From the sequence record PP175015.1: a DNA stretch of 64,000 nucleotides; one strand, given 5' to 3'. Below the pieces are notes generated by a model, which worked only from the letters and a program-made list of their open reading frames with translations, was not told where the DNA came from and ran no database searches. A program made the position numbers and the translations under genes. Of the stretch, positions 60-58,823 are shown piece by piece (the stretch's first letter is position 1; the number at the start of each line of letters is the position of its first letter). This DNA is from Escherichia phage UE-S5a.

Positions 60-2414
60 ATGAACGAAATGTTCTCACAAGGTGGTAAAGGCTCCACTGG
101 TATTCTTACCAACAAACAAGCCATTGCCCGTAAGTTTGGTGTTAAGCAGAATGAGGTTGTTTACTTTGCTGTAGGTGTAGACTTAGGGGAATACAAGGTC
201 ATTTATGATAAGACTACCCAGCGAGCTTACTCATTACCTGCAGACCTTGGTTCAGGGGTTACTGCTGTAAGCCTTAATACTGCCGGTGTGTTAGTTCACT
301 CTACTGGTAATGTTGACCTGGGTGCACTAGCTGTTTCACGAGGAGAGTTTATAACAGTCCCTGGGTCCTTCTCTTTGGGTTATGAGATTAAAGTAAAGAA
401 TGAATGTCTTGAATACCAGGGTGGGTTGTATCGATGGGATGGCGCACTGCCAAAGGTTGTAGATGCTGGGTCTGTTCCTGATATTGGTACAGGAAAGTGG
501 CTGAGCGTCGGTGATGCAGCCCTGCGCAGCCAGATTTCAGACCCGGATGGTGCGTCCAGTTACCCTGAATTGCAGATGGCAAGATGGCGTGATGAGGGTG
601 ATGTTCGAGGCTGGGGTGCTAAAGGGGATGGTGTAACAGATAGTACGGAGAATATAGCTGCTTCACTAAATTCTCAAAAAGCTGTCGTAGCATCAGACGG
701 TGTATTCTCTAGTTCTGGTATTAATAGTAATTACTGTAACTTAGACGGTAGAGGCAGTGGTGTACTAAGTCACCGTTCAAGTACAGGTAACTACTTAGTA
801 TTTAACAATCTACGCTCAGGTCGCTTAAGTAATATTACGGTAGAAAGTAATAAGGCGACCGATACCACTCAAGGGCAGCAGGTATCTCTTGCTGGTGGCA
901 GTGATGTTACTATAAGTGATGTTAATTTCTCAAACGTTAAGGGCGCTGGTTTCAGTTTAATCACATACCCTAATGATGCACCCTCTGATGGGCTTATGAT
1001 TAAAGGCATTCGAGGTAGCTACTCCGGCTATGCTACTAATAAGGCGGCTGGATGCATACATGCTGATTCCTCGGTTAACTCCCTCATAAATAACGTCATT
1101 GCTAAGAACTACCCTCAGTTCGGGGCTGTAGAACTGAAAGGTACAGCCAGTTATAACATAGTCAGCAATGTTATAGGGGCAGACTGCCAGCATGTAACTT
1201 ACAACGGTACAGAAGGGTCAATAGCTCCCTCTAACAACCTTATCAATGGGGTAGTGGCTAATAATCCTAAATATGCAGCGGTTGTTGCAGGCAAAGGTAG
1301 TACCAACTTAATCTCAGATGTGCTTGTAGATTTCTCAATCTCTGACGCTAGTCAGGCTCACGGTGTTACAGTAGAAGGCTCTGATAACGTAATAAGCAAT
1401 GTGCTTATGTCAGGATGTGATGGTACTAACTCTTTAGGGCAAGCTCAAACTGCTACAATTGCGCGCTTTATAGATACAGCTAATAACAACTATGCGTCTG
1501 TATTTCCTAGCTACAGTGCTACAGGTGTTATTACTTTCGAATCAGGTTCTACCCGTAACTTCGTAGAGGTAAAGCATCCGGGAAGGAGAAACGACCTTCT
1601 CAGTGCTACTGGTACTATTGAAGGTGCAGTTACTATTGACGGCACTAGTAATAGCAACGTAGTGCACGCACCTGCCTTAGGACAGTACATAGGTAGTATG
1701 TCAGGTCGGTTCGAATGGCGGATTAAGTCCATGTCACTTCCGTCAGGCGTTCTTACCTCGGCTGATAAATACAGAATGCTTGGGGATGGTGCTGTGTCAT
1801 TAGCTGTAGGCGGGGGTACTTCTTCTCAAGTTCGCCTATTTACTTCTGATGGTACTTCTCGGAAAGTATCACTCACCAACGGTAACGTGCGTCTTCCTAC
1901 CAGTAGCACAGGTTATTTGCAGTTAGGTTCTGATGCAATGACCCCAGATAGTACTAATACATACGCATTAGGTTCCGCAAGTAGAGCATGGTCTGGCGGT
2001 TTTACTCAATCAGCATTCACTGTTGTCTCAGATGCTAGGGATAAAACAGAGCCTCTTAATATCTCAGATGCTTTACTGGATGCTTGGTCTGAAGTTGACT
2101 TTGTGCAGTTTCAGTACTTGGACAGGATTGAGGAGAAGGGTGCAGACTCAGCCAGATGGCACTTTGGTATCATCGCTCAGCGAGCTAAGGAGGCTTTCGA
2201 ACGTCACGGCATAGATGCACATCGCTATGGCTTCCTGTGCTTCGACAGTTGGGATGATGTATATGAGGAAGATGCCAATGGCTCTCGTAAACTGATTACA
2301 CCAGCAGGTTCCCGCTACGGTATTCGTTACGAGGAAGTACTGATATTAGAAGCTGCGTTGATGCGGCGTACTATTAAGCGTATGCAGGAAGCATTAGCTG
2401 TTATGTCTAAGTGA
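60..2414 (+). CDS. Tail fiber/tailspike with C-terminal intramolecular chaperone (peptidase S74-like) domain; reading frame is open upstream to position 3, so the true start may lie outside the window
   Basis: 784-aa ORF; Gly/Ser/Thr/Asn-rich central region typical of beta-helical receptor-binding proteins; C-terminal VVSDARDKTEP...WHFGIIAQRAKEAFERHG matches the self-cleaving chaperone domain of endosialidase-type fibers; RBS AAAGAGG before ATG at 60. Confidence 0.7.
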   Translation: MNEMFSQGGKGSTGILTNKQAIARKFGVKQNEVVYFAVGVDLGEYKVIYDKTTQRAYSLPADLGSGVTAVSLNTAGVLVHSTGNVDLGALAVSRGEFITVPGSFSLGYEIKVKNECLEYQGGLYRWDGALPKVVDAGSVPDIGTGKWLSVGDAALRSQISDPDGASSYPELQMARWRDEGDVRGWGAKGDGVTDSTENIAASLNSQKAVVASDGVFSSSGINSNYCNLDGRGSGVLSHRSSTGNYLVFNNLRSGRLSNITVESNKATDTTQGQQVSLAGGSDVTISDVNFSNVKGAGFSLITYPNDAPSDGLMIKGIRGSYSGYATNKAAGCIHADSSVNSLINNVIAKNYPQFGAVELKGTASYNIVSNVIGADCQHVTYNGTEGSIAPSNNLINGVVANNPKYAAVVAGKGSTNLISDVLVDFSISDASQAHGVTVEGSDNVISNVLMSGCDGTNSLGQAQTATIARFIDTANNNYASVFPSYSATGVITFESGSTRNFVEVKHPGRRNDLLSATGTIEGAVTIDGTSNSNVVHAPALGQYIGSMSGRFEWRIKSMSLPSGVLTSADKYRMLGDGAVSLAVGGGTSSQVRLFTSDGTSRKVSLTNGNVRLPTSSTGYLQLGSDAMTPDSTNTYALGSASRAWSGGFTQSAFTVVSDARDKTEPLNISDALLDAWSEVDFVQFQYLDRIEEKGADSARWHFGIIAQRAKEAFERHGIDAHRYGFLCFDSWDDVYEEDANGSRKLITPAGSRYGIRYEEVLILEAALMRRTIKRMQEALAVMSK

Positions 2415-2492
2415 GTAATACTGGTACGGTTAGATCAGTAGAGTTGGTTAACAGTAGCCTACGTACTACCAGGCTATTACTTATCTAGGTAT

Positions 2493-2521
2493 AAAACCCC
2501 GCTCAGGCGGGGTTTGTTTTT
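2493..2521. terminator. Bidirectional rho-independent terminator between convergent genes
   Basis: ataaaa-CCCCGC-tcag-GCGGGG-tttgttttt: GC stem flanked by A-run and T-run. Confidence 0.6.
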
Positions 2522-2539
2522 ATCTATTAATAATATTTC

Positions 2540-3166
2540 TTATATAGAGTTTACTGTTTGCATTGCCCTAATTGATACTGCTGTTAGGGTAATTACTTGT
2601 CCTGAGATATTAAACATACCTAACTGAATACCGTCTACCATGAAAGGGTCAGTTGAACCAAGTGTGTAAGTAGCCAGTACGTTATCTCTGTTAGCAATGT
2701 CTGTACCCTGTACTTTAACACTAGCATCTGAACCTACTATCGTAATTCCATTGGTTCGTCTTGTTTGTGTTCTCCATTCCCTTGCTGTACCTGCACCACC
2801 TGCAATAATTCCTGATATACGAACACTGAACATTACCTGGGTATTCCTGGTTCTAATGGGGAACTTAAGATTTCCTTCTTCAATTGTTAGTGCTGCTGTA
2901 CCTCCAGGTGATTTAGTTATCCCTGGTAATGAAAAGTAATTGAACCAGGATTGGTCATTTACTGCCTGGCTCCCGGTCCATGTATACAAGTCCAGAAGAA
3001 ATGTGTCTTCTAACTCTGTTGGTGGGAAAGGTAGTAGTTCTGGGGGGATCTCTGAGATGTTATTAGCAGAAACTATTCGTTCCCCATAACTTCCCACGAC
3101 CAACAATCCCCCCTTCATTTTGCACACAACATCCCTACCACTTTGGAAAATATCTTTAATAGACAT
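2540..3166 (-). CDS. Hypothetical protein encoded antisense to the late module
   Basis: Track ORF 2540..3193; start moved to second ATG (MSIKDIF...) preceded by GAGG at 6 nt; no recognisable motif. Confidence 0.45.
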   Translation of the reverse strand: MSIKDIFQSGRDVVCKMKGGLLVVGSYGERIVSANNISEIPPELLPFPPTELEDTFLLDLYTWTGSQAVNDQSWFNYFSLPGITKSPGGTAALTIEEGNLKFPIRTRNTQVMFSVRISGIIAGGAGTAREWRTQTRRTNGITIVGSDASVKVQGTDIANRDNVLATYTLGSTDPFMVDGIQLGMFNISGQVITLTAVSIRAMQTVNSI

Positions 3167-3290
3167 AGTTACCTCGCAGTTGATACCAGACACTATGTCT
3201 GGATGTATCCCATCATACTAAGTATTATCTAAGAGTCATCTTATGATACGACCCTATTGGGGTTCTTAACTTTACAACTACGGTAATATT

Positions 3291-3620
3291 ATGAATGAAT
3301 CGGGCGAACTGCTTCTAGTCAGACTGGAGGAACGATTGAAGACTCTGTTTGAGAATCAGACGAGAGACAGACAGGACCGTGAGAAACTGGAGGAAACTCT
3401 GGGAGAATTACGGGATTCAATCAATGACATAGGCAATAGACTAAAAAATGTGGAGGATAGCTTAGCTAAGAATGAACCTACTATTGAAGAGTTCATCACC
3501 ATTAAGCATAAAGTTGTTGGTGCTGGAATTTTTGGTAAGTGGGTATGGGCTGGAGCAGGTGCAATTATTGGTGTATTGGCTGCTGCAAGACGGGAGATAT
3601 TCGCATGGTTCGCAGGCTAA
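3291..3620 (+). CDS. Coiled-coil protein with C-terminal transmembrane helix (holin/antiholin-associated candidate)
   Basis: 109 aa; charged coiled-coil N-terminus, C-terminal VVGAGIFGKWVWAGAGAIIGVLAAA; sits at head of lysis cassette. Confidence 0.45.
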   Translation: MNESGELLLVRLEERLKTLFENQTRDRQDREKLEETLGELRDSINDIGNRLKNVEDSLAKNEPTIEEFITIKHKVVGAGIFGKWVWAGAGAIIGVLAAARREIFAWFAG

Positions 3621-3865
3621 AAAGAAAAGTAGAGTTAGTACCTAACTGGAAAAGGTGTTGGAAGTGGGCATCCATTCAGATTAGTACACTTGGTTTAGTT
3701 CTATTTTCCGCTATAGATATTATCCAACCAATGGTGACAGGATTACCTCGTCACATCTTGGAAGATATTCCCCATGGTTCCAATATTGCAATCGCACTGT
3801 TTGCCTTAAACATCATAGGCAGATTAATACGATTCCGACCAAAGGAAGATTCACATGAAAGCTAA
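3605..3865 (+). CDS. Putative class II holin (two TMDs)
   Basis: Start moved to ATG 3605 (GGGAGA 8 nt upstream); 86 aa, basic N-terminus, two hydrophobic helices (ISTLGLVLFSAIDII, IAIALFALNIIGRLI), charged C-terminus; overlaps endolysin start. Confidence 0.5.
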   Translation: MVRRLKRKVELVPNWKRCWKWASIQISTLGLVLFSAIDIIQPMVTGLPRHILEDIPHGSNIAIALFALNIIGRLIRFRPKEDSHES

Positions 3866-4490
3866 ACAGAAACTTGCTGCAAAAGGTGGTGCAGTGGGAG
3901 GGGTTATCGCTGCTATTCTGGGGGCAGTGTTCTATATGGAAGGAGGTTATGTAAACAATCCTCGTGACCCAGGTGGGGAAACTAATCATGGTATTACCCA
4001 ATCAGTAGCTAAGACTCATAAAGAAGTTCTGGCTACTGAGTATGGTTGGGATGGTTCTATGAAGGGTTTATCTAAAGAGATGGCTGCTGAGATATACATT
4101 GATGACTATGTACTTAAACCTAACTTCGTAGCCTTCGCTGATATATCTCCTGCTGTAACGCATAAGCTAGTAGATGCTGGTGTTAATACTGGTGTAACCC
4201 GTCCTGCTAAGTGGTTGCAGATGTCTCTTAATGAAATGTCACGTAATGGCAAAGACTACCCTAAAATACAGGTTGATGGTAAAGTCGGTACAAGTACTGT
4301 TAATGCATATAAAGCATTACAGAAAAAACGGGGCAAAGTTGCAGCATGTCAGGTAATGATTAAGCTGCTTGATGCTAAACAACTGAACCACTATACCTCA
4401 TTAAACATGCCAGACTTTACGTATGGTTGGGTAGCTAACCGAATAGGCAATGTGCCACTGGAGGCATGTAATGAAGATGCTAATCTCTAA
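3855..4490 (+). CDS. Endolysin, N-acetylmuramidase (GH108 domain + peptidoglycan-binding domain), N4 gp61-like
   Basis: N-terminal EGGYVNNPRDPGGETNHGITQ is the GH108 signature; C-terminal region resembles PG_binding_3; RBS AAGGAAG. Confidence 0.8.
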   Translation: MKAKQKLAAKGGAVGGVIAAILGAVFYMEGGYVNNPRDPGGETNHGITQSVAKTHKEVLATEYGWDGSMKGLSKEMAAEIYIDDYVLKPNFVAFADISPAVTHKLVDAGVNTGVTRPAKWLQMSLNEMSRNGKDYPKIQVDGKVGTSTVNAYKALQKKRGKVAACQVMIKLLDAKQLNHYTSLNMPDFTYGWVANRIGNVPLEACNEDANL

Positions 4491-4977
4491 AGGTTGGCCT
4501 TATCTTCTGGTGGTGGTCCTTGGGGCCACCATTTACTTTTGGGGCAATTCCAATGGGCAGTCTACTGTTCAAAAGAAATGGGATGCCCAAAAGGTCGAAG
4601 ACCAAAAGGCAACGCAAAAATTACAGGACAAATACAATGCTCTCCAAAGAAACCATAGTTATGAAGTCGGGTTACTCACTTCCCGGTTGCAGACGGCTGA
4701 GAGTAATTACGCAAGCGAGCTTGCTCGCGTTAGCAGTGATTACGACAGCCGGATGCAACAGTCTGAAAGACGAGCATCGGTATATAAACGTCAAGCCGAA
4801 GCCGGAACCCTTGAGTGCAGAAGTCTTGCAAGCCATGCAGCCAGACTCGACAATAGTCTTGAAGAAGGCAGACGTTTGGTTGAAGAACTCCGGGCAACTG
4901 TTAGACTCCGTGACAGCCAACTAATTGAGTTGGGTAAACAGATTCAGGCTGACCGTAAACTTTTTGAACAGGAATAA
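4471..4977 (+). CDS. i-spanin (Rz-like)
   Basis: Start moved to ATG 4471 (GGAGG 6 nt upstream); N-terminal [24 protein letters not shown] followed by charged coiled-coil region; overlaps endolysin end. Confidence 0.6.
4661..4924 (+). CDS. o-spanin (Rz1-like lipoprotein) embedded in the +1 frame of the i-spanin gene
   Basis: Track ORF 4520..4924 trimmed to ATG 4661: [32 protein letters not shown] = signal peptide with lipobox-like TAGC, then short Pro-rich mature peptide. Confidence 0.55.
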   Translation: MKSGYSLPGCRRLRVITQASLLALAVITTAGCNSLKDEHRYINVKPKPEPLSAEVLQAMQPDSTIVLKKADVWLKNSGQLLDSVTAN

Positions 4978-28713: not shown

Positions 28714-28787
28714 TGTCCACTACTGGATTTGAACCAGTGACTTTCCGATTATTAGTCGGTTGCTTTCCCCGTCTAAGCTAAGCGGAC
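28714..28787 (-). tRNA. tRNA; anticodon loop reads CUAAUAA, i.e. anticodon AAU (formally Ile, unusual A34)
   Basis: Hand fold: acceptor GTCCGCT/AGTGGAC (one G-U), D-stem GCTT/AAGC, anticodon stem CCGA/TCGG, T-arm ACTGG-TTCAAAT-CCAGT; no encoded CCA. Confidence 0.55.
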
Positions 28788-28793
28788 ATAATA

Positions 28794-28869
28794 TGGTTAC
28801 CCGGACAGGATTCGAACCTGCGTCCTAGTTGGTTTACTAGTGGGGCTTTACCACTAAGCCTACCGGGTA
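28794..28869 (-). tRNA. tRNA with encoded CCA; anticodon arm non-canonical by hand fold (identity unresolved)
   Basis: Perfect acceptor TACCCGG/CCGGGTA, discriminator A, CCA encoded; D-stem GGCT/AGCC; T-arm GCAGG-TTCGAAT-CCTGT; anticodon region folds as CTAGT/ACTAG with a 6-nt loop. Confidence 0.5.
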
Positions 28870-50776: not shown

Positions 50777-51283
50777 TTATTTTGAAGGTCTAGCAGCTAC
50801 TGGTTTGTTTTCCTGATTCTGATACTTACCATTGTAATTAGCAGGTTCTTGAACCAGATGAAATAATACTTGAGCTATCCCAGCACCAGCCGGGATATGC
50901 AATTTCTTACGACCGTGATAGACCAGTTCGAGGGTAAGATACCCTTTCCATCCTGGTTCTATTACGGTATTGAACACTGATAATGCACGTCTTGCCCATG
51001 TAGACTTATCGTGAACGATTGCTACACAGGACGGGGACATGTTGAACTTCTCAATTGCTGAGGCCAAGGCGAACTTACCGAGATGGCGTGATACTTGATT
51101 TCCATCAACGACTTTCACCATTGGAATCAGCCCAAATAAGCGATAGAAGGTAATATCTTGTTTGATACGAATATCATAACCAGCTTCACCTAATCCATAG
51201 CTTACACCATGCTCTGATACCTTATGGTCTGGGACATCCAGCAACTGAGATGAACGGTATAGAGAATTACCATTAACAACCAT
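50777..51283 (-). CDS. dcd: dCTP deaminase
   Basis: KSTWARRALSVFNTVIEPGWKGYLTLEL matches the dCTP deaminase/dUTPase-fold signature. Confidence 0.7.
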   Translation of the reverse strand: MVVNGNSLYRSSQLLDVPDHKVSEHGVSYGLGEAGYDIRIKQDITFYRLFGLIPMVKVVDGNQVSRHLGKFALASAIEKFNMSPSCVAIVHDKSTWARRALSVFNTVIEPGWKGYLTLELVYHGRKKLHIPAGAGIAQVLFHLVQEPANYNGKYQNQENKPVAARPSK

Positions 51284-52458
51284 TATTTCATTCCTTTAGG
51301 GATATGAACTACCTCCCCAAAAGGTACGGTAGCATTGGGATTATTCAGAACACACCAGATGATAGGAATATCAAATGGTAATTCTTCCATTGGACGAACA
51401 TACATATCGGAGAATATGATTGCAGCGGTTGGTTTATTCTTAATAATCCACTCGCGTACTGGTTCCAGGTTTGTACCACCACGACCGGTAATCTTAATCT
51501 CTTCAAAAGTATCTTCTTCAGTGATGTCTATCTCTTCTTGGATAATATCGTCGAAGGTAATTAAGGACATCTTCTTAGGATTGAACTGGCTCTTAACGTA
51601 GGCAACCTCTGAGTTAAAACGCAGAGAGTCAGCACTACTAATAGAACCAGATACATCCTCAAAGTAGGCTAAGTGTCGTAAGCGTCCTTCATCATCTTCC
51701 ATGGAAGGTAGATAGATGTCAGTAAAACGACGGTTAGGTCTGGCCCACGTATAATGAGTATCGTCAATGTCGGTAAAGAAGTTCATGAGGACTTCCTGCC
51801 ATGGAACCACTGGTTTAAGGAATTGGGTAATAACCTCTTCCATACGACCAGCACCCTTACCGGGCATCTGTCCACCAGCCATTTTCTGGCTCTGCATTGC
51901 TCGTACTACGTTGTTGACGACAGCACCCTGGGACTGCCCCGAAGTGGGGGATTTCATGTCGCCAGCAAGACCTGCTCCAGCACCCCCTGACGGCTTCTGC
52001 CTTTTCTGAGGGTTCTTCATCAGGTCATCGTAGATGTCTTCTTCGACCCATCCTTTATATTGAGGGTCTTTGCAAATACCTTTATCAATGCCAGTGAACT
52101 TATAACCATCTTCTTCTAACTGAAGGTTAATGAAGTGGTCACACGCCTGGTTCCAGATTTCTGGGTCACGGCTTCCACGACGGATGCCATGCAGATATGC
52201 CACATGCCAAAGTTCATGCATTAACACTGTTTCTCTGGCATCTGGACACATCCAGATAAAGAAATCTGGATTGAAGTGAAGTTCTATCCCATCAGTACAT
52301 GCAGTGGGACAATTCTCACGTTTCCATGAGAACTTAAGACTACATAGTAATGAACCAAAGAACGCAGCACTGCGTCCGAGAAATGCGTTGGCCTGTATTC
52401 TATCGTATTCCCTCATTAACTGTTCATCAGTGAGGTTATGTGGTGGTATGTTATTCAT
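51283..52458 (-). CDS. VWA-domain protein with N-terminal HExxH metallopeptidase-like domain (DUF2201-type)
   Basis: HELWHVAYLHG (HExxH) in N-terminal half; C-terminal half has VWA-like layout; partner of the AAA ATPase below. Confidence 0.55.
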   Translation of the reverse strand: MNNIPPHNLTDEQLMREYDRIQANAFLGRSAAFFGSLLCSLKFSWKRENCPTACTDGIELHFNPDFFIWMCPDARETVLMHELWHVAYLHGIRRGSRDPEIWNQACDHFINLQLEEDGYKFTGIDKGICKDPQYKGWVEEDIYDDLMKNPQKRQKPSGGAGAGLAGDMKSPTSGQSQGAVVNNVVRAMQSQKMAGGQMPGKGAGRMEEVITQFLKPVVPWQEVLMNFFTDIDDTHYTWARPNRRFTDIYLPSMEDDEGRLRHLAYFEDVSGSISSADSLRFNSEVAYVKSQFNPKKMSLITFDDIIQEEIDITEEDTFEEIKITGRGGTNLEPVREWIIKNKPTAAIIFSDMYVRPMEELPFDIPIIWCVLNNPNATVPFGEVVHIPKGMK

Positions 52459-52934
52459 TAAGATGCTCCATGATTTATATGGTAACCCAATAATTTTTCT
52501 GCTTCCTTTCTGGCTGTAATGGCCTCTTGTTTACTGTTAAACTTTCCTAAGTAAATTTGTTTACCATTATCATTTATATGGGCAGCCCAGATTTTATCTC
52601 GGGTGTGCCAGTAAACTCCTGTCACACCTGATGTATTTGTAATTCTCTTGGTTTGATTTTTGCAATTAATCGAGTTTGTTACTAAACGGAAATTGCTTGG
52701 GTAATTATTTAATCTATTATGGTCAATATGGTCTACCTGCATACCGTCAGGAATTGGTCCAATCTCCATTTCATAAATTATGCGGTGAACTAAATGCATT
52801 TTCTTGTTACATTTAACACGCAAATACCCACTGTTATCCAAACAACCGGCAATGGCACCTGCTTTTACGCAGCCCCTGCTTACTTTCCAGTAGAGGGAAC
52901 CATTGCTATAAACAAATAGTTCATGCCAATTCAT
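52458..52934 (-). CDS. HNH-AP2 homing endonuclease
   Basis: HNH core QVDHIDHNRLNN...LVTNSIN; AP2-type domain NTSGVTGVYWHTRDKIWAAHINDNGKQIYLGKFNSKQEAITARKEAEKLLGY. Confidence 0.8.
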   Translation of the reverse strand: MNWHELFVYSNGSLYWKVSRGCVKAGAIAGCLDNSGYLRVKCNKKMHLVHRIIYEMEIGPIPDGMQVDHIDHNRLNNYPSNFRLVTNSINCKNQTKRITNTSGVTGVYWHTRDKIWAAHINDNGKQIYLGKFNSKQEAITARKEAEKLLGYHINHGAS

Positions 52935-52938
52935 TATT

Positions 52939-53991
52939 TTATCCGTGAATGTAACGAGAGATATTAGCAGCAGCCTTACGCCATTCAGGTGTAGCCTGAA
53001 GTTCTGGCAATGCTCTGCCTACTGTACGGAAGTACAGAATCTTATGGGTGAACGTTTTAAAGCGTTCAATGTACTGAAGAACATCAGAGAAGTTTTCTTC
53101 AGTAGTTTTGTTAGCCAGGTGGTTAACAGTAGCCCAACACAGGTTGTTATCTTCCGGTAGTGCACAGCCCAGAGGGTCTTTGACTACTTTCTCAATCGTA
53201 ATCATACGATTGTATACCTGAGTGAATTGAACAAACTCTGTAGCCTTACCAGCAGTAACATGTCCTGCGTAGTAGATAGAATCTTCATCTGGCAGAGCAC
53301 CTTCAGGACGGTTCTTGAGGTCTTTGTTAACAAAGTCCCAGGTGCGTGGGCAACAGAACGTTTTGTTCTTATGGGCTGGGTCGAAGTCATGCAGATAACC
53401 TGGGTTAGCATGTAAGAATGCAACCAGACGTTCATCCCATTCTTGTGGAATCATTACATCTTCAACAAAGATGTCGAAGTTAAGTTCCATTTCGAAGTGA
53501 ACCACGCGAGACTGCATTGCAGTGCCCAGTGGGTTAACAATGGCACGGTCAGTAGCTTTGTTACCAGCACATATAATCATCACATTAGGATGGAGTTTTT
53601 TCTGACCAGTCATACGGTCCAGAATCAGTTTGTATGCAGCAGCTACTACTTCTTTTCTGGCTGAGTTGAACTCATCAAGGAACAGGAGCCAACCATTATA
53701 TCCTTCCGGTATCTCATCCCCCTCAATAGGGAATAAGTCAGCGAATGGGATAAACTCTGCACGGTCACCATTACGGAATGGTAGACCAGACAAATCCTCT
53801 GGGGCAGAAGTAGACAGACGATGGTCTATCAGTTTCATACCAAATTCTTCTGCAACAGAGCGAATAATTGCAGATTTACCCATTCCCGGTGATGAAGTCA
53901 GGAACGGTACGTTACCTGCTTGCAGGGCACGGATAATAAAGTTACGGGCCTGACGTGTATTACATATGGTCAGTGAGTCAATGCTCGCCAT
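52939..53991 (-). CDS. MoxR-like AAA+ ATPase
   Basis: Walker A SSPGMGKSAI; Walker B LLFLDEFNSA; about 350 aa. Confidence 0.65.
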   Translation of the reverse strand: MASIDSLTICNTRQARNFIIRALQAGNVPFLTSSPGMGKSAIIRSVAEEFGMKLIDHRLSTSAPEDLSGLPFRNGDRAEFIPFADLFPIEGDEIPEGYNGWLLFLDEFNSARKEVVAAAYKLILDRMTGQKKLHPNVMIICAGNKATDRAIVNPLGTAMQSRVVHFEMELNFDIFVEDVMIPQEWDERLVAFLHANPGYLHDFDPAHKNKTFCCPRTWDFVNKDLKNRPEGALPDEDSIYYAGHVTAGKATEFVQFTQVYNRMITIEKVVKDPLGCALPEDNNLCWATVNHLANKTTEENFSDVLQYIERFKTFTHKILYFRTVGRALPELQATPEWRKAAANISRYIHG

Positions 53992-54025: not shown

Positions 54026-54352
54026 TTAAGATTTAATACATGGGTAGGCTGTATCAATTGCCATCAGAACCATGTCTGATGGTACTTTTACTGCATTAAC
54101 CTTTCTGTCATACAGAATAATAGTGGCTACTTTGTCAAAGACATTTCCTAACTTCAAACTATCTGGTACGCAGTTCTTACCTGCTTCTACACCCATAGTA
54201 ACCATGCCCATAAAGTAACCCTGGTTCACAAAGTTTGCATTATTGGCTTTGTAGTCAGCAGCAGCGTCTAACAGAGTTTCACGGCTGGATGCTTGAGCAT
54301 TGAATGACAGAACTGATAAAGCTACTACAGCAACAGCAATTAAAGTTTTCAT
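54026..54352 (-). CDS. Secreted/periplasmic hypothetical protein
   Basis: N-terminal signal peptide MKTLIAVAVVALSVLSFNAQA. Confidence 0.45.
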   Translation of the reverse strand: MKTLIAVAVVALSVLSFNAQASSRETLLDAAADYKANNANFVNQGYFMGMVTMGVEAGKNCVPDSLKLGNVFDKVATIILYDRKVNAVKVPSDMVLMAIDTAYPCIKS

Positions 54353-56234: not shown

Positions 56235-57452
56235 TTAACTTAATGCATAATCTGTTTCTAGAATGTCTTGCCAGAGGCTGTCATCCAGCTTACCAGCAGA
56301 GAACTCTTGTCCCAGTACTTGAGACAGAATGAAGCCCAGTAAGTCACTCTTAGCAATGTCAGACAGAATCTGATTGTACTGACGACGCAGGTCATTACCA
56401 TAGTTAGGGTGGCAACGGAAGCAATCATGTACAGTCATTACAGGGAATGGTTTCTTAGGCATAGTGTCGATCATATCTGCTACTACTTGACGGTCTACCA
56501 ATGCAATAGTATTCGGGTCAAGGAAGTCTAGGATAGACAGCGACAGGAATCCTGACCTTTCATAATGATTCCAGATTTCCATAGTCTTCTCTTGGTTCCC
56601 CTCAATAACGGGGTATTCACTTGGCCCGATATCGCACAGTTCCCGTACATAGGCAACCAGTTTAGGGTCGAAGTTACAACGACGTAGCATCTCACGTACT
56701 ACCATCCCATCAATAGAGTGAGTGATGTTAGCAGAGAGCATACGGGTCTTCTCTTCAGTACCCTGAACCATACGAGTGATGTCAAATGGTTTACCCAAGA
56801 AGTTAACAGTCTGTACTTCAAGAACCATGACTTTAATGACAGCATGGAAGTTGTCAGGGAGTACCCATATGTAACGGTTAGCATCCGGGTTACCACATTG
56901 CAGTAAGAACTTGTTAAGTGCCCAAGGACCACTTGCAACTGTTTCCATTACATTTTCAAAAGTCTTGAGACGGATACCTTCCCCGAATACTTCTTTAGGT
57001 TTGGCTTCTGAACCGTAGAATGCAGTCATAACTGCCTGCTTGGTATCACTACGTTTAATACGGGATGCTTCACCAAGGATGTCCAGCATCTTGTGATATA
57101 TAACTGTATAAGCATCACGTCGTAATGGCTTACCATTCTCTCCCATGTAATTAACTACGTTACACAGTTCAGCAGCAGAGCGGTCACCAGTCAGGCAGGC
57201 CAGTAACTGCAAGCCTGATGATGTAGCATCCAGGGCTACGGCATATCCGATAGGCTTACCAGCTTTCATATCTTTCCATGCGTTTACACCAGCATAGAAC
57301 AGTGCAGATTCCTCAGCTTCATCTACCAGATTAAGCAAGTTAGCTTCATTCTCATCGAACCAAGCAATACGCTCATCCCAGGTCTTTTTATCCAGACCAT
57401 AGTTATTGGCGATGTCTACTTTCAGGTATTCTTTAGCGGTTAACAGTTGCAT
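56235..57452 (-). CDS. Phage RNA polymerase II catalytic subunit (T7-like, N4 gp16-like)
   Basis: Start moved to ATG 57452 (AAGGAA RBS); T7 RNAP motifs: ALDATSSGLQ (A), RSDTKQAVMTAFYGS (B), VHDCF (C). Confidence 0.75.
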   Translation of the reverse strand: MQLLTAKEYLKVDIANNYGLDKKTWDERIAWFDENEANLLNLVDEAEESALFYAGVNAWKDMKAGKPIGYAVALDATSSGLQLLACLTGDRSAAELCNVVNYMGENGKPLRRDAYTVIYHKMLDILGEASRIKRSDTKQAVMTAFYGSEAKPKEVFGEGIRLKTFENVMETVASGPWALNKFLLQCGNPDANRYIWVLPDNFHAVIKVMVLEVQTVNFLGKPFDITRMVQGTEEKTRMLSANITHSIDGMVVREMLRRCNFDPKLVAYVRELCDIGPSEYPVIEGNQEKTMEIWNHYERSGFLSLSILDFLDPNTIALVDRQVVADMIDTMPKKPFPVMTVHDCFRCHPNYGNDLRRQYNQILSDIAKSDLLGFILSQVLGQEFSAGKLDDSLWQDILETDYALS

Positions 57453-57498
57453 TTTATGTTCCTTAGCGTCTGAGCCATTTGGCTCGCATAGTGGGTAG

Positions 57499-58005
57499 TT
57501 ATTGACCGTGACGGTTAGTATAGCCAGCACCATTCTGGTTCAAGGCTTCTAACATGTCGGCTCGTGCATCACATGCTTGTTGGAATGCGAACTCGTAGCC
57601 GTATTTCTTAACTGAGAATACTTTACACCTCTGTTTCTTTGTGATGTTGTCCGTACATGTAGCACGCCAGAATAACCCCTTTGGTGAATCCCATAGAGAT
57701 ACACCAGTTACCCCAGATTTATTGTCTGAACGTTTAGTAGAGTTACGCAGGTTGACTACAATGGGAACACATCGCAAGTTACACCAGCGGCAGTCCGTTC
57801 TGATACCGTTGATGTGGTCAATTGTATAACCAGCAGGGATAGATCTATGCTTCATTTCCCACAACCAACGGTGAAGGTATAAGATTTTATTTCCACGAGA
57901 GATGCGAATGTACCCAGTGGCACTATTCGCTGCCTCCGGTGGATGGGCTACAGCAAGTTCATCAACTGACTTGTTCCAGTAGCCCATTGGCATACGCTCT
58001 TTCAT
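57499..58005 (-). CDS. HNH-AP2 homing endonuclease inserted between the RNAP II subunit genes
   Basis: HNH core YTIDHINGIRTDCRWCNLR; AP2 domain NKSGVTGVSLWDSPKGLFWRATC...KYGYEFAFQQACDARADMLEAL; paralog of 52458-52934. Confidence 0.8.
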   Translation of the reverse strand: MKERMPMGYWNKSVDELAVAHPPEAANSATGYIRISRGNKILYLHRWLWEMKHRSIPAGYTIDHINGIRTDCRWCNLRCVPIVVNLRNSTKRSDNKSGVTGVSLWDSPKGLFWRATCTDNITKKQRCKVFSVKKYGYEFAFQQACDARADMLEALNQNGAGYTNRHGQ

Positions 58006-58823
58006 TAATCCTCATTAACAAGTTCTTTTTCTGCAAATTCTAGGACTGCTTTATTCCAAGAAGTCCCTTGGTAGTTACAGTGATAGCCCTGAGCGTAAGT
58101 ACGCCCACGTTTGTCATATTTGTGACCCAGTGAGAAGTTATTACCTTCTTTGGTCACTAACTCCATTACTTCCTTAGCAGTACGGCTGTACTTCTCAAAG
58201 GCTTTAACACGTTTCTCATATTCCTGACGGGTTTCACCCTCTTTGGGCTTATCCATATTAGGACGAGAGTCTTTTACATAGTTAGCAACGTCCCAGTTGA
58301 TACTTAGACGCTGATTATTCATACGGTTGATGTGATCAAGACAGACATCCATCTCATGATGGTTCTTCTTGAGGATGATACTTCCCCTGCTCTCGTAGTA
58401 ACCTGTATCACGGTTACACAGAACAGGCTTAGGAGCACTTACGATAGGTAATGGATACTGGAATGCTTCCAGTTCCATCTGAACATCTTCACTAATCTCG
58501 TAGATAACACCGAACTTGTCGATGGTAGGGTCATAGTTGAAGCAGTCATTCTCTGCCATCTTATACAGACAGTCAGCGATGTACTGAGCATCATCTGAAT
58601 GGCTCATAAGAGAGCCAATCATAGTCTGAAGGTCAGCACGTTTATGTAGGGCAATCTGCACCATTGCATCAATGAGCAGCTTATAATCAATTTCCAAATA
58701 GGCAGCGAATGCCTTAAAGTCAATTTCTTCGGAGTCCTCAAATTCCTTCCTCATGCGAGGGAGTAATTGATTTTTGTTGAAAAGAATTTCGAGTTGCTTC
58801 TGATGTTCAATGGATGAGTACAT
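58005..58823 (-). CDS. Phage RNA polymerase II small (N-terminal) subunit (N4 gp15-like)
   Basis: 272 aa (N4 gp15 is about 269 aa as recalled); lies upstream of the catalytic subunit. Confidence 0.5.
   Translation of the reverse strand: MYSSIEHQKQLEILFNKNQLLPRMRKEFEDSEEIDFKAFAAYLEIDYKLLIDAMVQIALHKRADLQTMIGSLMSHSDDAQYIADCLYKMAENDCFNYDPTIDKFGVIYEISEDVQMELEAFQYPLPIVSAPKPVLCNRDTGYYESRGSIILKKNHHEMDVCLDHINRMNNQRLSINWDVANYVKDSRPNMDKPKEGETRQEYEKRVKAFEKYSRTAKEVMELVTKEGNNFSLGHKYDKRGRTYAQGYHCNYQGTSWNKAVLEFAEKELVNED

What the first reader, a model, noticed from the sequence alone, without database searches (positions are those of the whole stretch)
52458..52934. Second HNH-AP2 homing endonuclease paralog
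Same HNH + AP2 architecture as 57499-58005 but diverged sequence, inserted between the AAA ATPase and VWA genes. Two paralogs in one genome suggests repeated acquisition or intragenomic spread.
Basis: partly seen in the sequence, partly recalled or inferred. Interest (0 to 1): 0.5.

Follow-up and report, generated by a model that had tools for sequence, protein, structure and literature searches.

The report
Known HNH-AP2 homing endonuclease gene
This is an ordinary, already-annotated selfish "homing endonuclease" gene wedged between two genes of an N4-like coliphage; comparing related phages shows it comes and goes at exactly this spot, always together with a short recoded stretch of the neighbouring gene.

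Summary
The ORF at 52458-52934 (minus strand, 158 aa) is real. It has an N-terminal I-HmuI-like HNH nuclease and a C-terminal AP2 DNA-binding domain, shown by Pfam, a profile search of the PDB and a confident structure model.

The window is 100% identical to Escherichia phage UE-M3 (Gamaleyavirus, N4-like). There the gene is already annotated "HNH homing endonuclease". It is the ortholog of G7C gp24.1.

It lies exactly between the gp24 AAA ATPase and gp25 VWA-like genes. Nine sequenced relatives carry a gene at this site: five have this allele, four a 58%-identical second allele, and three of those four are frameshifted or deleted. About 33 relatives have a clean empty site.

All occupied genomes, and no empty ones, carry a recoded, mostly synonymous, AT-richer version of the first ~72 nt of gp25. 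Divergence between the two classes is 34% there and 5-11% elsewhere. This looks like homing with co-conversion and points to a target at the gp24/gp25 junction.

The second HNH-AP2 gene (57499-58005) is only 34% identical and belongs to a different site-specific lineage. The evidence favours independent acquisition, not intragenomic spread. No cleavage was tested. Ordinary and already known; low interest.

The parts
52458..52934 (-). Free-standing HNH-AP2 homing endonuclease gene (158 aa). It equals UEM3_058 and is the ortholog of G7C gp24.1.
   Evidence: ORF. Pfam HNH_3 and AP2. PHROG 99 at 2.4e-63. 100% identical to UE-M3 and 94% aa to G7C gp24.1. dN/dS against the G7C copy is 0.095.
52791..52934 (-). 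N-terminal beta-strand region (residues 1-48). It corresponds to the N-terminal DNA-binding sheets of I-HmuI.
   Evidence: The profile alignment to 1U3E covers positions 7-103. The model has strands at 7-10, 13-16, 38-42 and 45-48.
52665..52793 (-). HNH (HNN-type) catalytic core, residues 48-90. D68-H69 and N90 align with I-HmuI D74-H75 and N96.
   Evidence: Pfam HNH_3 at 2.6e-18. Residue-by-residue alignment to 1U3E. H69 is invariant, and D68, N77, N81 and N90 are at least 90% conserved in 54 homologs. The roles of the I-HmuI residues are from my own knowledge of that structure.
52488..52631 (-). AP2 DNA-binding domain (residues ~102-149): a three-stranded sheet plus a helix.
   Evidence: Pfam AP2 at 2.8e-07, sub-threshold at 31.2 vs 33.3 bits. 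Profile hits to WRI1 and TEM1 AP2 domains. Model strands at 107-110, 115-122 and 125-132, helix at 135-149. Foldseek matches TEM1, WRI1 and AtERF1 at rmsd 1.2-2.5 A.
52935..52941 (-). Upstream junction: gp24 stop codon TAA plus a 4-nt linker AATA before the endonuclease ATG. In empty genomes the same TAA plus a 4- or 7-nt linker directly precedes the gp25 ATG.
   Evidence: Junction sequences read.
52456..52469 (-). Downstream junction: a GGAG Shine-Dalgarno-like motif inside the last endonuclease codons (52466-52469), and a TAATG stop/start overlap with gp25.
   Evidence: Read directly from the sequence. The tGGAGca..TAATG ending is kept in five of the six occupied genomes aligned (tGGGGaa in G7C), across both alleles. 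Translational coupling is an inference.
52387..52458 (-). Recoded 'occupied-type' haplotype of gp25 nt 1-72, linked to the endonuclease gene. This is the proposed co-conversion tract and/or cleavage-immune variant of the homing site.
   Evidence: 27 of 38 gp25 mismatches against PGN829.1 fall here. All 13 sites that split perfectly by occupancy, out of 596 variable sites, lie at nt 7-63. Between-class divergence is 0.345 here and 0.05-0.11 elsewhere. Database-wide reciprocal checks agree. GC is 38.9% against 44.4% for the empty-type patch.
52939..53991 (-). gp24 AAA ATPase gene, the upstream neighbour.
   Evidence: Pfam AAA. Annotations.
51283..52458 (-). gp25 gene (DUF2201_N putative metallopeptidase + VWA-like), the downstream neighbour and proposed target gene.
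   Evidence: Pfam at 3.3e-56 and 1.7e-34.
57499..58005 (-). The other HNH-AP2 endonuclease gene in the window. It is an independent lineage sitting between the two RNAP2 subunit genes.

Best explanation
The ORF is a free-standing (intronless) HNH-AP2 homing endonuclease gene sitting in the 4-nt gap between the gp24 AAA ATPase and gp25 VWA-like genes of a G7C-like N4 phage.

Proposed mechanism, inferred rather than shown: in a mixed infection with a relative that lacks the gene, the protein binds DNA through its N-terminal beta region and AP2 domain. It then nicks or cuts near the gp24/gp25 junction, most likely within the first ~30-70 bp of gp25. Recombinational repair from the carrier genome copies the 476-bp gene plus the adjacent ~72 nt of gp25 into the recipient.

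Carrier genomes escape cutting for two possible reasons. The insertion splits the junction, and the first 72 nt of their gp25 are heavily recoded, mostly synonymously.

The gene borrows gp25's original translation start context. Its own 3' end supplies a GGAG and a TAATG overlap, so gp25 is presumably still expressed.
For: Shown:
- Nuclease and DNA-binding domains are present, with the catalytic D-H...N residues conserved.
- The gene is under purifying selection (dN/dS 0.095 against G7C).
- The insertion is exactly ORF-sized, 476 bp, relative to the empty site in PGN829.1. That phage is 99% identical in both flanking genes.
- Nine phages are occupied and about 33 are empty.
- A second allele, 58% aa identical, sits at the same site. 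It is intact in PD38, frameshifted in Bp4 and Uz-1, and carries a 35-nt deletion in Moonfish. This is the expected invasion-decay cycle.
- The 13 perfectly occupancy-linked sites all lie in gp25 nt 7-63. No such site occurs in the remaining 2.1 kb of gp24 and gp25.
- Between-class divergence is 34.5% in the patch and about 5-11% elsewhere, where it equals within-class diversity.
- Reciprocal database searches confirm the association in 58 records.
- Gene and patch are both AT-richer (36.9% and 38.9% GC) than the flanks (44.7%).

Background: the mechanism of intronless homing with co-conversion is established for T4 seg and mob genes (PMC2988022). HNH-AP2 is a described homing endonuclease family (Magnani 2004, as cited in PMC10448857).
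Against: - No cleavage, homing or marker-exclusion experiment exists for this protein or G7C gp24.1, as far as my literature searches show.
- Free-standing phage endonucleases often cut hundreds of bp or more from their gene (PMC2988022). The patch may be only a hitch-hiking tract and not the target.
- Uz-1 carries the (frameshifted) gene with an occupied-type patch only for about the first 35 nt. Linkage beyond that point is therefore breakable.
- I-HmuI, the closest solved relative, is a nickase that also acts on its own genome (my own knowledge). Self-immunity is thus not a strict requirement.
- The Pfam AP2 hit is below the gathering score.
- The occupied genomes are few and not phylogenetically independent.
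Confidence: 0.8

Rival explanations
1. The two HNH-AP2 genes are recent paralogs produced by duplication or spread within this genome.
For: They share the same domain order, similar length and the same PHROG 99 family. They align at E=1e-16.
Against: - They are only 34% identical.
- Each has far closer relatives elsewhere, at its own conserved site.
- UE-S5b has one gene without the other.
Confidence: 0.03
2. The protein is no longer mobile. It would be a domesticated or decaying remnant, for example an AP2-based DNA-binding regulator or a nuclease used only to damage competitor or host DNA.
For: - AP2 domains act as transcriptional silencers in phage CasPR proteins (bioRxiv 10.64898/2026.02.23.707548).
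- Decayed copies exist at this site.
- No activity data exist.
Against: - The catalytic residues are intact, and H69 is invariant in 54 homologs.
- dN/dS is 0.095.
- The gene is dispensable, being absent from about 33 close relatives.
- The patchy distribution cuts across flank phylogeny: PGN829.1 is 99% identical in the flanks but empty.
Confidence: 0.12
3. It is an intron- or intein-associated endonuclease, or a terminase-partner HNH like HK97 gp74, rather than a free-standing homing gene.
For: Related Gamaleyaviruses do have HNH ORFs interrupting the gp24 ATPase gene. HNH proteins assist packaging in some phages (my own knowledge).
Against: - The ORF abuts the gp24 stop and overlaps the gp25 start, and both neighbours are intact.
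- No Rfam intron family matches in the window.
- The neighbours are not terminase genes.
- The gene is absent from most relatives.
Confidence: 0.02

Closest known systems
G7C gp24.1 / UE-M3 UEM3_058 (annotated HNH homing endonuclease of Gamaleyavirus)
   Same: It is the same gene. It is 100% identical to UE-M3 and 94% aa identical to G7C gp24.1, at the same position between gp24 and gp25.
   Different: Nothing differs. The public records carry only a sequence-based label, and I found no functional study.
HNH-AP2 homing endonuclease family (Magnani et al. 2004; the IPA-HNH genes of ICP1 in Barth et al. 2023, PMC10448857)
   Same: It has an N-terminal HNH nuclease plus a C-terminal AP2 domain, is phage-encoded and has a patchy distribution.
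   Different: This protein has a canonical Pfam HNH_3 domain. The ICP1 IPA-HNH genes were described as too divergent for that profile.
I-HmuI (PDB 1U3E), intron-encoded HNH nicking endonuclease of Bacillus phage SPO1
   Same: The N-terminal beta DNA-binding region and the HNN catalytic core match (profile E=6.9e-12; top Foldseek hit).
   Different: I-HmuI lies inside a group I intron and ends in a helix-turn-helix domain. This protein is free-standing and ends in an AP2 domain. Whether it nicks or makes a double-strand break is unknown.
T4 free-standing endonucleases (SegF, SegG, MobE): intronless homing with marker exclusion
   Same: It is intergenic between conserved genes, and its presence or absence among relatives is linked to a flanking tract.
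   Different: The T4 enzymes were shown to cut and to bias inheritance; here that is only inferred. The Seg enzymes are GIY-YIG, not HNH. Their cleavage sites can be far from the gene, whereas the linked tract here is directly adjacent.

Membership tests
HNH-AP2 homing endonucleases | HNH/HNN nuclease core with conserved catalytic Asp-His and metal-binding Asn | tested here: met
   Pfam HNH_3 at 2.6e-18. D68, H69 and N90 align with I-HmuI D74, H75 and N96. H69 is invariant in 54 homologs.
HNH-AP2 homing endonucleases | C-terminal AP2 DNA-binding domain | tested here: met
   Pfam AP2 at E=2.8e-07, but 31.2 bits is below the 33.3-bit gathering score. The profile hits WRI1 at 4.7e-07 and TEM1 at 7.5e-04. 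The predicted fold superposes on AtERF1, TEM1 and WRI1 at 1.2-2.5 A.
Free-standing homing endonuclease gene (intronless homing) | Presence/absence polymorphism at one precise site in otherwise collinear, closely related genomes | tested here: met
   The insert is 476 bp relative to the empty site. Nine phages are occupied and about 33 are empty.
Free-standing homing endonuclease gene (intronless homing) | Flanking sequence co-inherited with the gene (co-conversion tract), discordant with the phylogeny of the rest of the locus | tested here: met
   The 13 perfectly linked sites are confined to gp25 nt 7-63. Between-class divergence is 0.345 in the patch and about 0.06 in the flanks. PGN829.1 is 99% identical in the flanks and 62.5% in the patch.
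Free-standing homing endonuclease gene (intronless homing) | Site-specific cleavage of the allele that lacks the gene | not testable with these tools
   Needs an in vitro cleavage assay. Only a predicted target region is offered here.
Free-standing homing endonuclease gene (intronless homing) | Biased (super-Mendelian) inheritance in mixed infection that depends on the nuclease | not testable with these tools
   Needs phage crosses.
Intragenomic paralog pair (recent duplication) | The two copies are each other's closest relatives | tested here: not met
   They are 34% identical to each other. Relatives in other phages reach 50-94% for this gene and 56-78% for the other.
Intron-encoded homing endonuclease | ORF lies inside a self-splicing intron that interrupts a host gene | tested here: not met
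   The ORF is intergenic and both neighbours are intact. Rfam finds no intron in the window.

The most novel reading that the evidence does not exclude
The recoded first ~72 nt of gp25 (possibly only the first ~35 nt, as the Uz-1 recombinant suggests), together with the split gp24/gp25 junction, would be the enzyme's homing site and its self-immunity determinant. That would make this one of the few HNH-AP2 free-standing endonucleases with a target predicted from natural population data. Two diverged alleles and natural susceptible, immune and recombinant substrates are available, so AP2-domain target recognition could be dissected with them.
Probability: 0.45. Interest if true: 0.35.

Novelty: already known. 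Interest (0 to 1): 0.18.

Why it matters
It matters little beyond correct annotation. Such genes are mosaic hot spots that distort phage phylogenies and local recombination maps. This locus offers a tidy natural series for anyone who wants a test case of HNH-AP2 homing in N4-like phages. The series comprises an intact allele A, an intact allele B, decayed copies, empty sites and one recombinant. The analysis also corrects the idea that the two HNH-AP2 genes arose by spread within the genome.

Tried and rejected
- A first gapless comparison of the flanks gave inflated variable-site counts, because Bp4, U1G and NAN33P5 have indels. I redid it with MAFFT and got the same 13 linked sites.
- A sigma-70 promoter and terminator scan around the gene gave nothing above shuffled expectation for promoters. 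The gene appears to be simply embedded in the operon.
- Rfam at gathering thresholds found no intron or other RNA at this locus, nor in the interrupted gp24 genes of U1G and NAN33P5.
- A search for an outside donor of the occupied-type patch found it only in occupied Gamaleyaviruses.
- I looked up genomic contexts of two metagenomic homologs, P0008 and P0010 (56-57% identical). Neither lies between gp24- and gp25-like genes, so they do not extend the site-specific lineage.
- NG86 dS was saturated for all allele pairs except window vs G7C, so only that one dN/dS value is usable.
- The Magnani 2004 paper itself is not held in the library. I cite it only through PMC10448857.
- I considered and rejected a terminase-partner HNH, an intron-encoded endonuclease and a recent paralog (see the rival explanations).

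Full report
**1. What is there**

The window carries an ATG-to-TAA ORF of 158 aa at 52458-52934 on the minus strand. Megablast of the 2.7-kb neighbourhood shows the window is 100% identical to Escherichia phage UE-M3 (PP301342.1). UE-M3 is a Gamaleyavirus (Schitoviridae), that is, a G7C-like relative of phage N4. In that record the ORF is UEM3_058, "HNH homing endonuclease". In the type phage G7C the 94%-identical ortholog is gp24.1, "HNH endonuclease; similar to EndZ of phage TLS".

**2. Domain check**

- Pfam gives HNH_3 at E=2.6e-18 for residues 48-90. It gives AP2 at E=2.8e-07 for residues 102-138, but the 31.2-bit AP2 score is just under the 33.3-bit gathering score.
- I therefore looked for independent support. 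A database search returned 96 homologs, many carrying both PF13392 and PF00847.
- A profile of 54 of these homologs hits the solved HNH homing endonuclease I-HmuI (1U3E) at 6.9e-12 over positions 7-103. It hits the AP2 domains of WRI1 (4.7e-07) and TEM1 (7.5e-04) over positions 99-155 and 90-149.
- An AlphaFold2 model built on that alignment is confident (mean pLDDT 93.2).
- Foldseek against the PDB returns I-HmuI first, then the TEM1, WRI1 and AtERF1 AP2 domains at 1.2-2.5 A over about 50 residues.
- In the I-HmuI alignment, D68-H69 and N90 match D74-H75 and N96. In I-HmuI these are the general base and the metal ligands; that assignment is from my own knowledge of the structure. H69 is invariant and D68 and N90 are at least 90% conserved among the 54 homologs.
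- PHROGs places both window proteins in phrog_99, "HNH endonuclease".

**3. Exact anatomy of the insertion**

In gene orientation the sequence reads: gp24 ...CACGGA TAA, then AATA, then ATG (endonuclease) ... CAT GGA GCA TCT TA-ATG (gp25). The endonuclease stop overlaps the gp25 start as TAATG. A GGAG lies 8 nt upstream of that ATG, inside the last endonuclease codons.

PGN829.1 is 99% identical to the window in both flanking genes. There the gp24 stop is followed by AACA and then directly by the gp25 ATG. The insert is thus exactly 476 bp, the ORF and nothing else. The endonuclease uses what was gp25's initiation context, and its own 3' end supplies a new one for gp25. That this maintains gp25 translation is an inference.

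The insert has 36.9% GC against 44.7% in the neighbours. No convincing promoter of its own was found.

**4. Distribution among relatives**

I classified fourteen Gamaleyavirus loci directly. Two database-wide searches extended this to 58 records, about 42 distinct phages.

| Class | Phages | State of the gene |
|---|---|---|
| Allele A (81-100% aa) | UE-M3, UE-S5b, UE-M6, G7C, Mimir124 | intact |
| Allele B (58% aa to A), same site | PD38 | intact |
| Allele B | Bp4, Uz-1 | 1-nt deletion in an A-run; could be a sequencing error |
| Allele B | Moonfish | 35-nt deletion in the AP2 region |
| Empty site | about 33 phages | clean site with a 4- or 7-nt linker |

Intact, decaying and empty states at one site are the pattern expected of a homing endonuclease life cycle. 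Between the window and G7C copies dN/dS is 0.095, so the intact gene is under purifying selection. Other allele pairs are saturated at synonymous sites. Their nucleotide identity is 60-75%, although the flanks are about 92% identical. The element is therefore older than, or exchanged independently of, its surroundings.

**5. A linked, recoded stretch of gp25**

Against PGN829.1, 27 of the 38 mismatches in gp25 fall within its first 72 nt. The next mismatch is at nt 589.

In a MAFFT alignment of the 14 loci there are 596 variable sites in gp24 plus gp25. Thirteen of them separate occupied from empty genomes perfectly. All thirteen lie at gp25 nt 7-63, and none lies in gp24.

Between-class divergence is 0.345 in nt 1-72. 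Elsewhere it is 0.05-0.11 and equals within-class diversity.

Codons 11-24 encode the same peptide (DEQLMREYDRIQA) in both classes but differ at nearly every synonymous position, for example TTA/CTC, AGG/CGT and AGA/CGT. The occupied-type patch is AT-richer (38.9% GC) than the empty-type patch (44.4%), resembling the endonuclease gene itself.

Reciprocal blastn searches agree. The empty-type 120-mer aligns over its full length only in empty records. The occupied-type 120-mer reaches 79% identity or more only in occupied records.

One natural recombinant, Uz-1, keeps the occupied type for about the first 35 nt and then switches to the empty type. With Uz-1 included, strict linkage holds only for nt 7-29.

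**6. Most likely mechanism**

The domains, the conserved catalytic residues, the purifying selection, the precise presence/absence, the decayed copies and the linked flank are shown. The rest is inferred by analogy with intronless homing of T4 seg and mob genes (review PMC2988022).

The proposal is as follows. In co-infection the enzyme cuts or nicks the genome that lacks the gene. Repair from the carrier genome copies the gene together with flanking markers.

No other occupancy-linked polymorphism exists within about 1.1 kb on either side, and the insertion splits the gp24/gp25 junction. The most economical prediction is therefore a target at that junction or within the first 30-70 bp of gp25. 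The recoded patch would be the co-conversion tract, the immunity determinant, or both.

Three caveats apply. Free-standing phage endonucleases can cut far from their gene. I-HmuI-type enzymes are nickases that may also act on their own genome (my own knowledge). The occupied genomes are few and related to each other.

I put 0.8 on "active or recently active free-standing homing endonuclease" and about 0.45 on the specific target prediction.

**7. The "second paralog" idea**

The two window proteins are 34% identical, and they are the only HNH-AP2 genes in the window.

The other gene (57499-58005) lies between the two subunit genes of the N4-type RNA polymerase II. Its closest relatives are a 78%-identical gene at the same inter-subunit site in the Enquatrovirus Jura and a 56%-identical gene next to RNAP1 in a Burkholderia phage. 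Within Gamaleyavirus it occurs only in UE-M3 and UE-M6. The near-identical sibling UE-S5b has the gp24/gp25 endonuclease but not this one.

The closest relatives of the present gene outside its own site are 50-52% identical genes in unrelated siphophages. Two metagenomic homologs at 56-57% identity sit in other genomic contexts.

The two genes are therefore separate, site-specific lineages acquired independently. They are not products of intragenomic spread.

**8. Comparison with what is known, and verdict**

HNH-AP2 endonucleases of phages, cyanobacteria and protists were described as a homing endonuclease family in 2004 (Magnani et al., as cited in PMC10448857). Studies of G7C-like phages already note that many indel loci are homing endonuclease-related (bioRxiv 10.1101/542787).

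I found no functional study of gp24.1. The gene passes every membership criterion that can be tested in silico. Cleavage and biased inheritance remain untested.

This is an ordinary, already-annotated element. The only added value is the population-level evidence for mobility and a testable target prediction. Interest is low.

Noticed in passing
window 51283-52458 (-): gp25 is a DUF2201_N putative metallopeptidase plus VWA-like protein by Pfam. PHROG 1314, which it matches at 3.8e-144, is labelled 'HNH endonuclease'. Many RefSeq and Pharokka-annotated Gamaleyavirus records copy that label onto gp25. This looks like a propagated misannotation, perhaps seeded by fusion with the neighbouring endonuclease gene.
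   Followed up: partly
L014 (Gamaleyavirus NAN33P5) 1484-4283; L004 (U1G) 2683-4617: In NAN33P5 the gp24 AAA ATPase gene is split into three pieces by two inserts. Each insert carries an HNH endonuclease ORF (189 and 191 aa), and they break the gene at the Walker-B 'LFLD|EF' and at 'CCPR|TW'. U1G and PW8 have one such insert, annotated 'phage intron'. Rfam at gathering thresholds finds no group I intron. Whether these are introns or gene-splitting free-standing elements is open.
   Followed up: partly
window 57499-58005 (-), between 58005-58823 and 56235-57533: The other HNH-AP2 gene separates the two RNAP2 subunit genes. The same site holds a 78% ortholog in Enquatrovirus Jura. In other Gamaleyaviruses it holds an 'endonuclease VII', another HNH or small hypothetical ORFs. 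The inter-subunit gap is thus a second hot spot for mobile nucleases. The mechanical ORF for the large subunit (432 aa) overlaps the endonuclease 3' end; the annotated start gives 405 aa.
   Followed up: partly
L015 (phage Uz-1), first ~120 nt of gp25: Uz-1 has the same length and frameshifted allele-B endonuclease as Bp4. It switches from the occupied-type to the empty-type gp25 haplotype after about nt 35, so it is a natural recombinant inside the linked patch.
   Followed up: yes
window 54026-54352 (-): A 108-aa secreted-looking protein is annotated 'Tai4' in UE-M3 and 'Rap1a' in Moonfish, that is, type VI secretion immunity-like. This is an unusual cargo for a lytic phage. I did not examine it.
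   Followed up: no
L017 (metagenome contig SRR33471211_36214) 1080-4033: The gene order is HNH-AP2 (56% identical to this gene), a 271-aa protein, HNH-AP2 (169 aa), then a protein of at least 366 aa. This resembles an N4-like RNAP2 locus flanked and split by two endonuclease genes. The identities of the 271-aa and 366-aa proteins were not checked.
   Followed up: no
window 28714-28869 (-): Two adjacent tRNA genes were detected by Rfam (63 and 40.7 bits).
   Followed up: no
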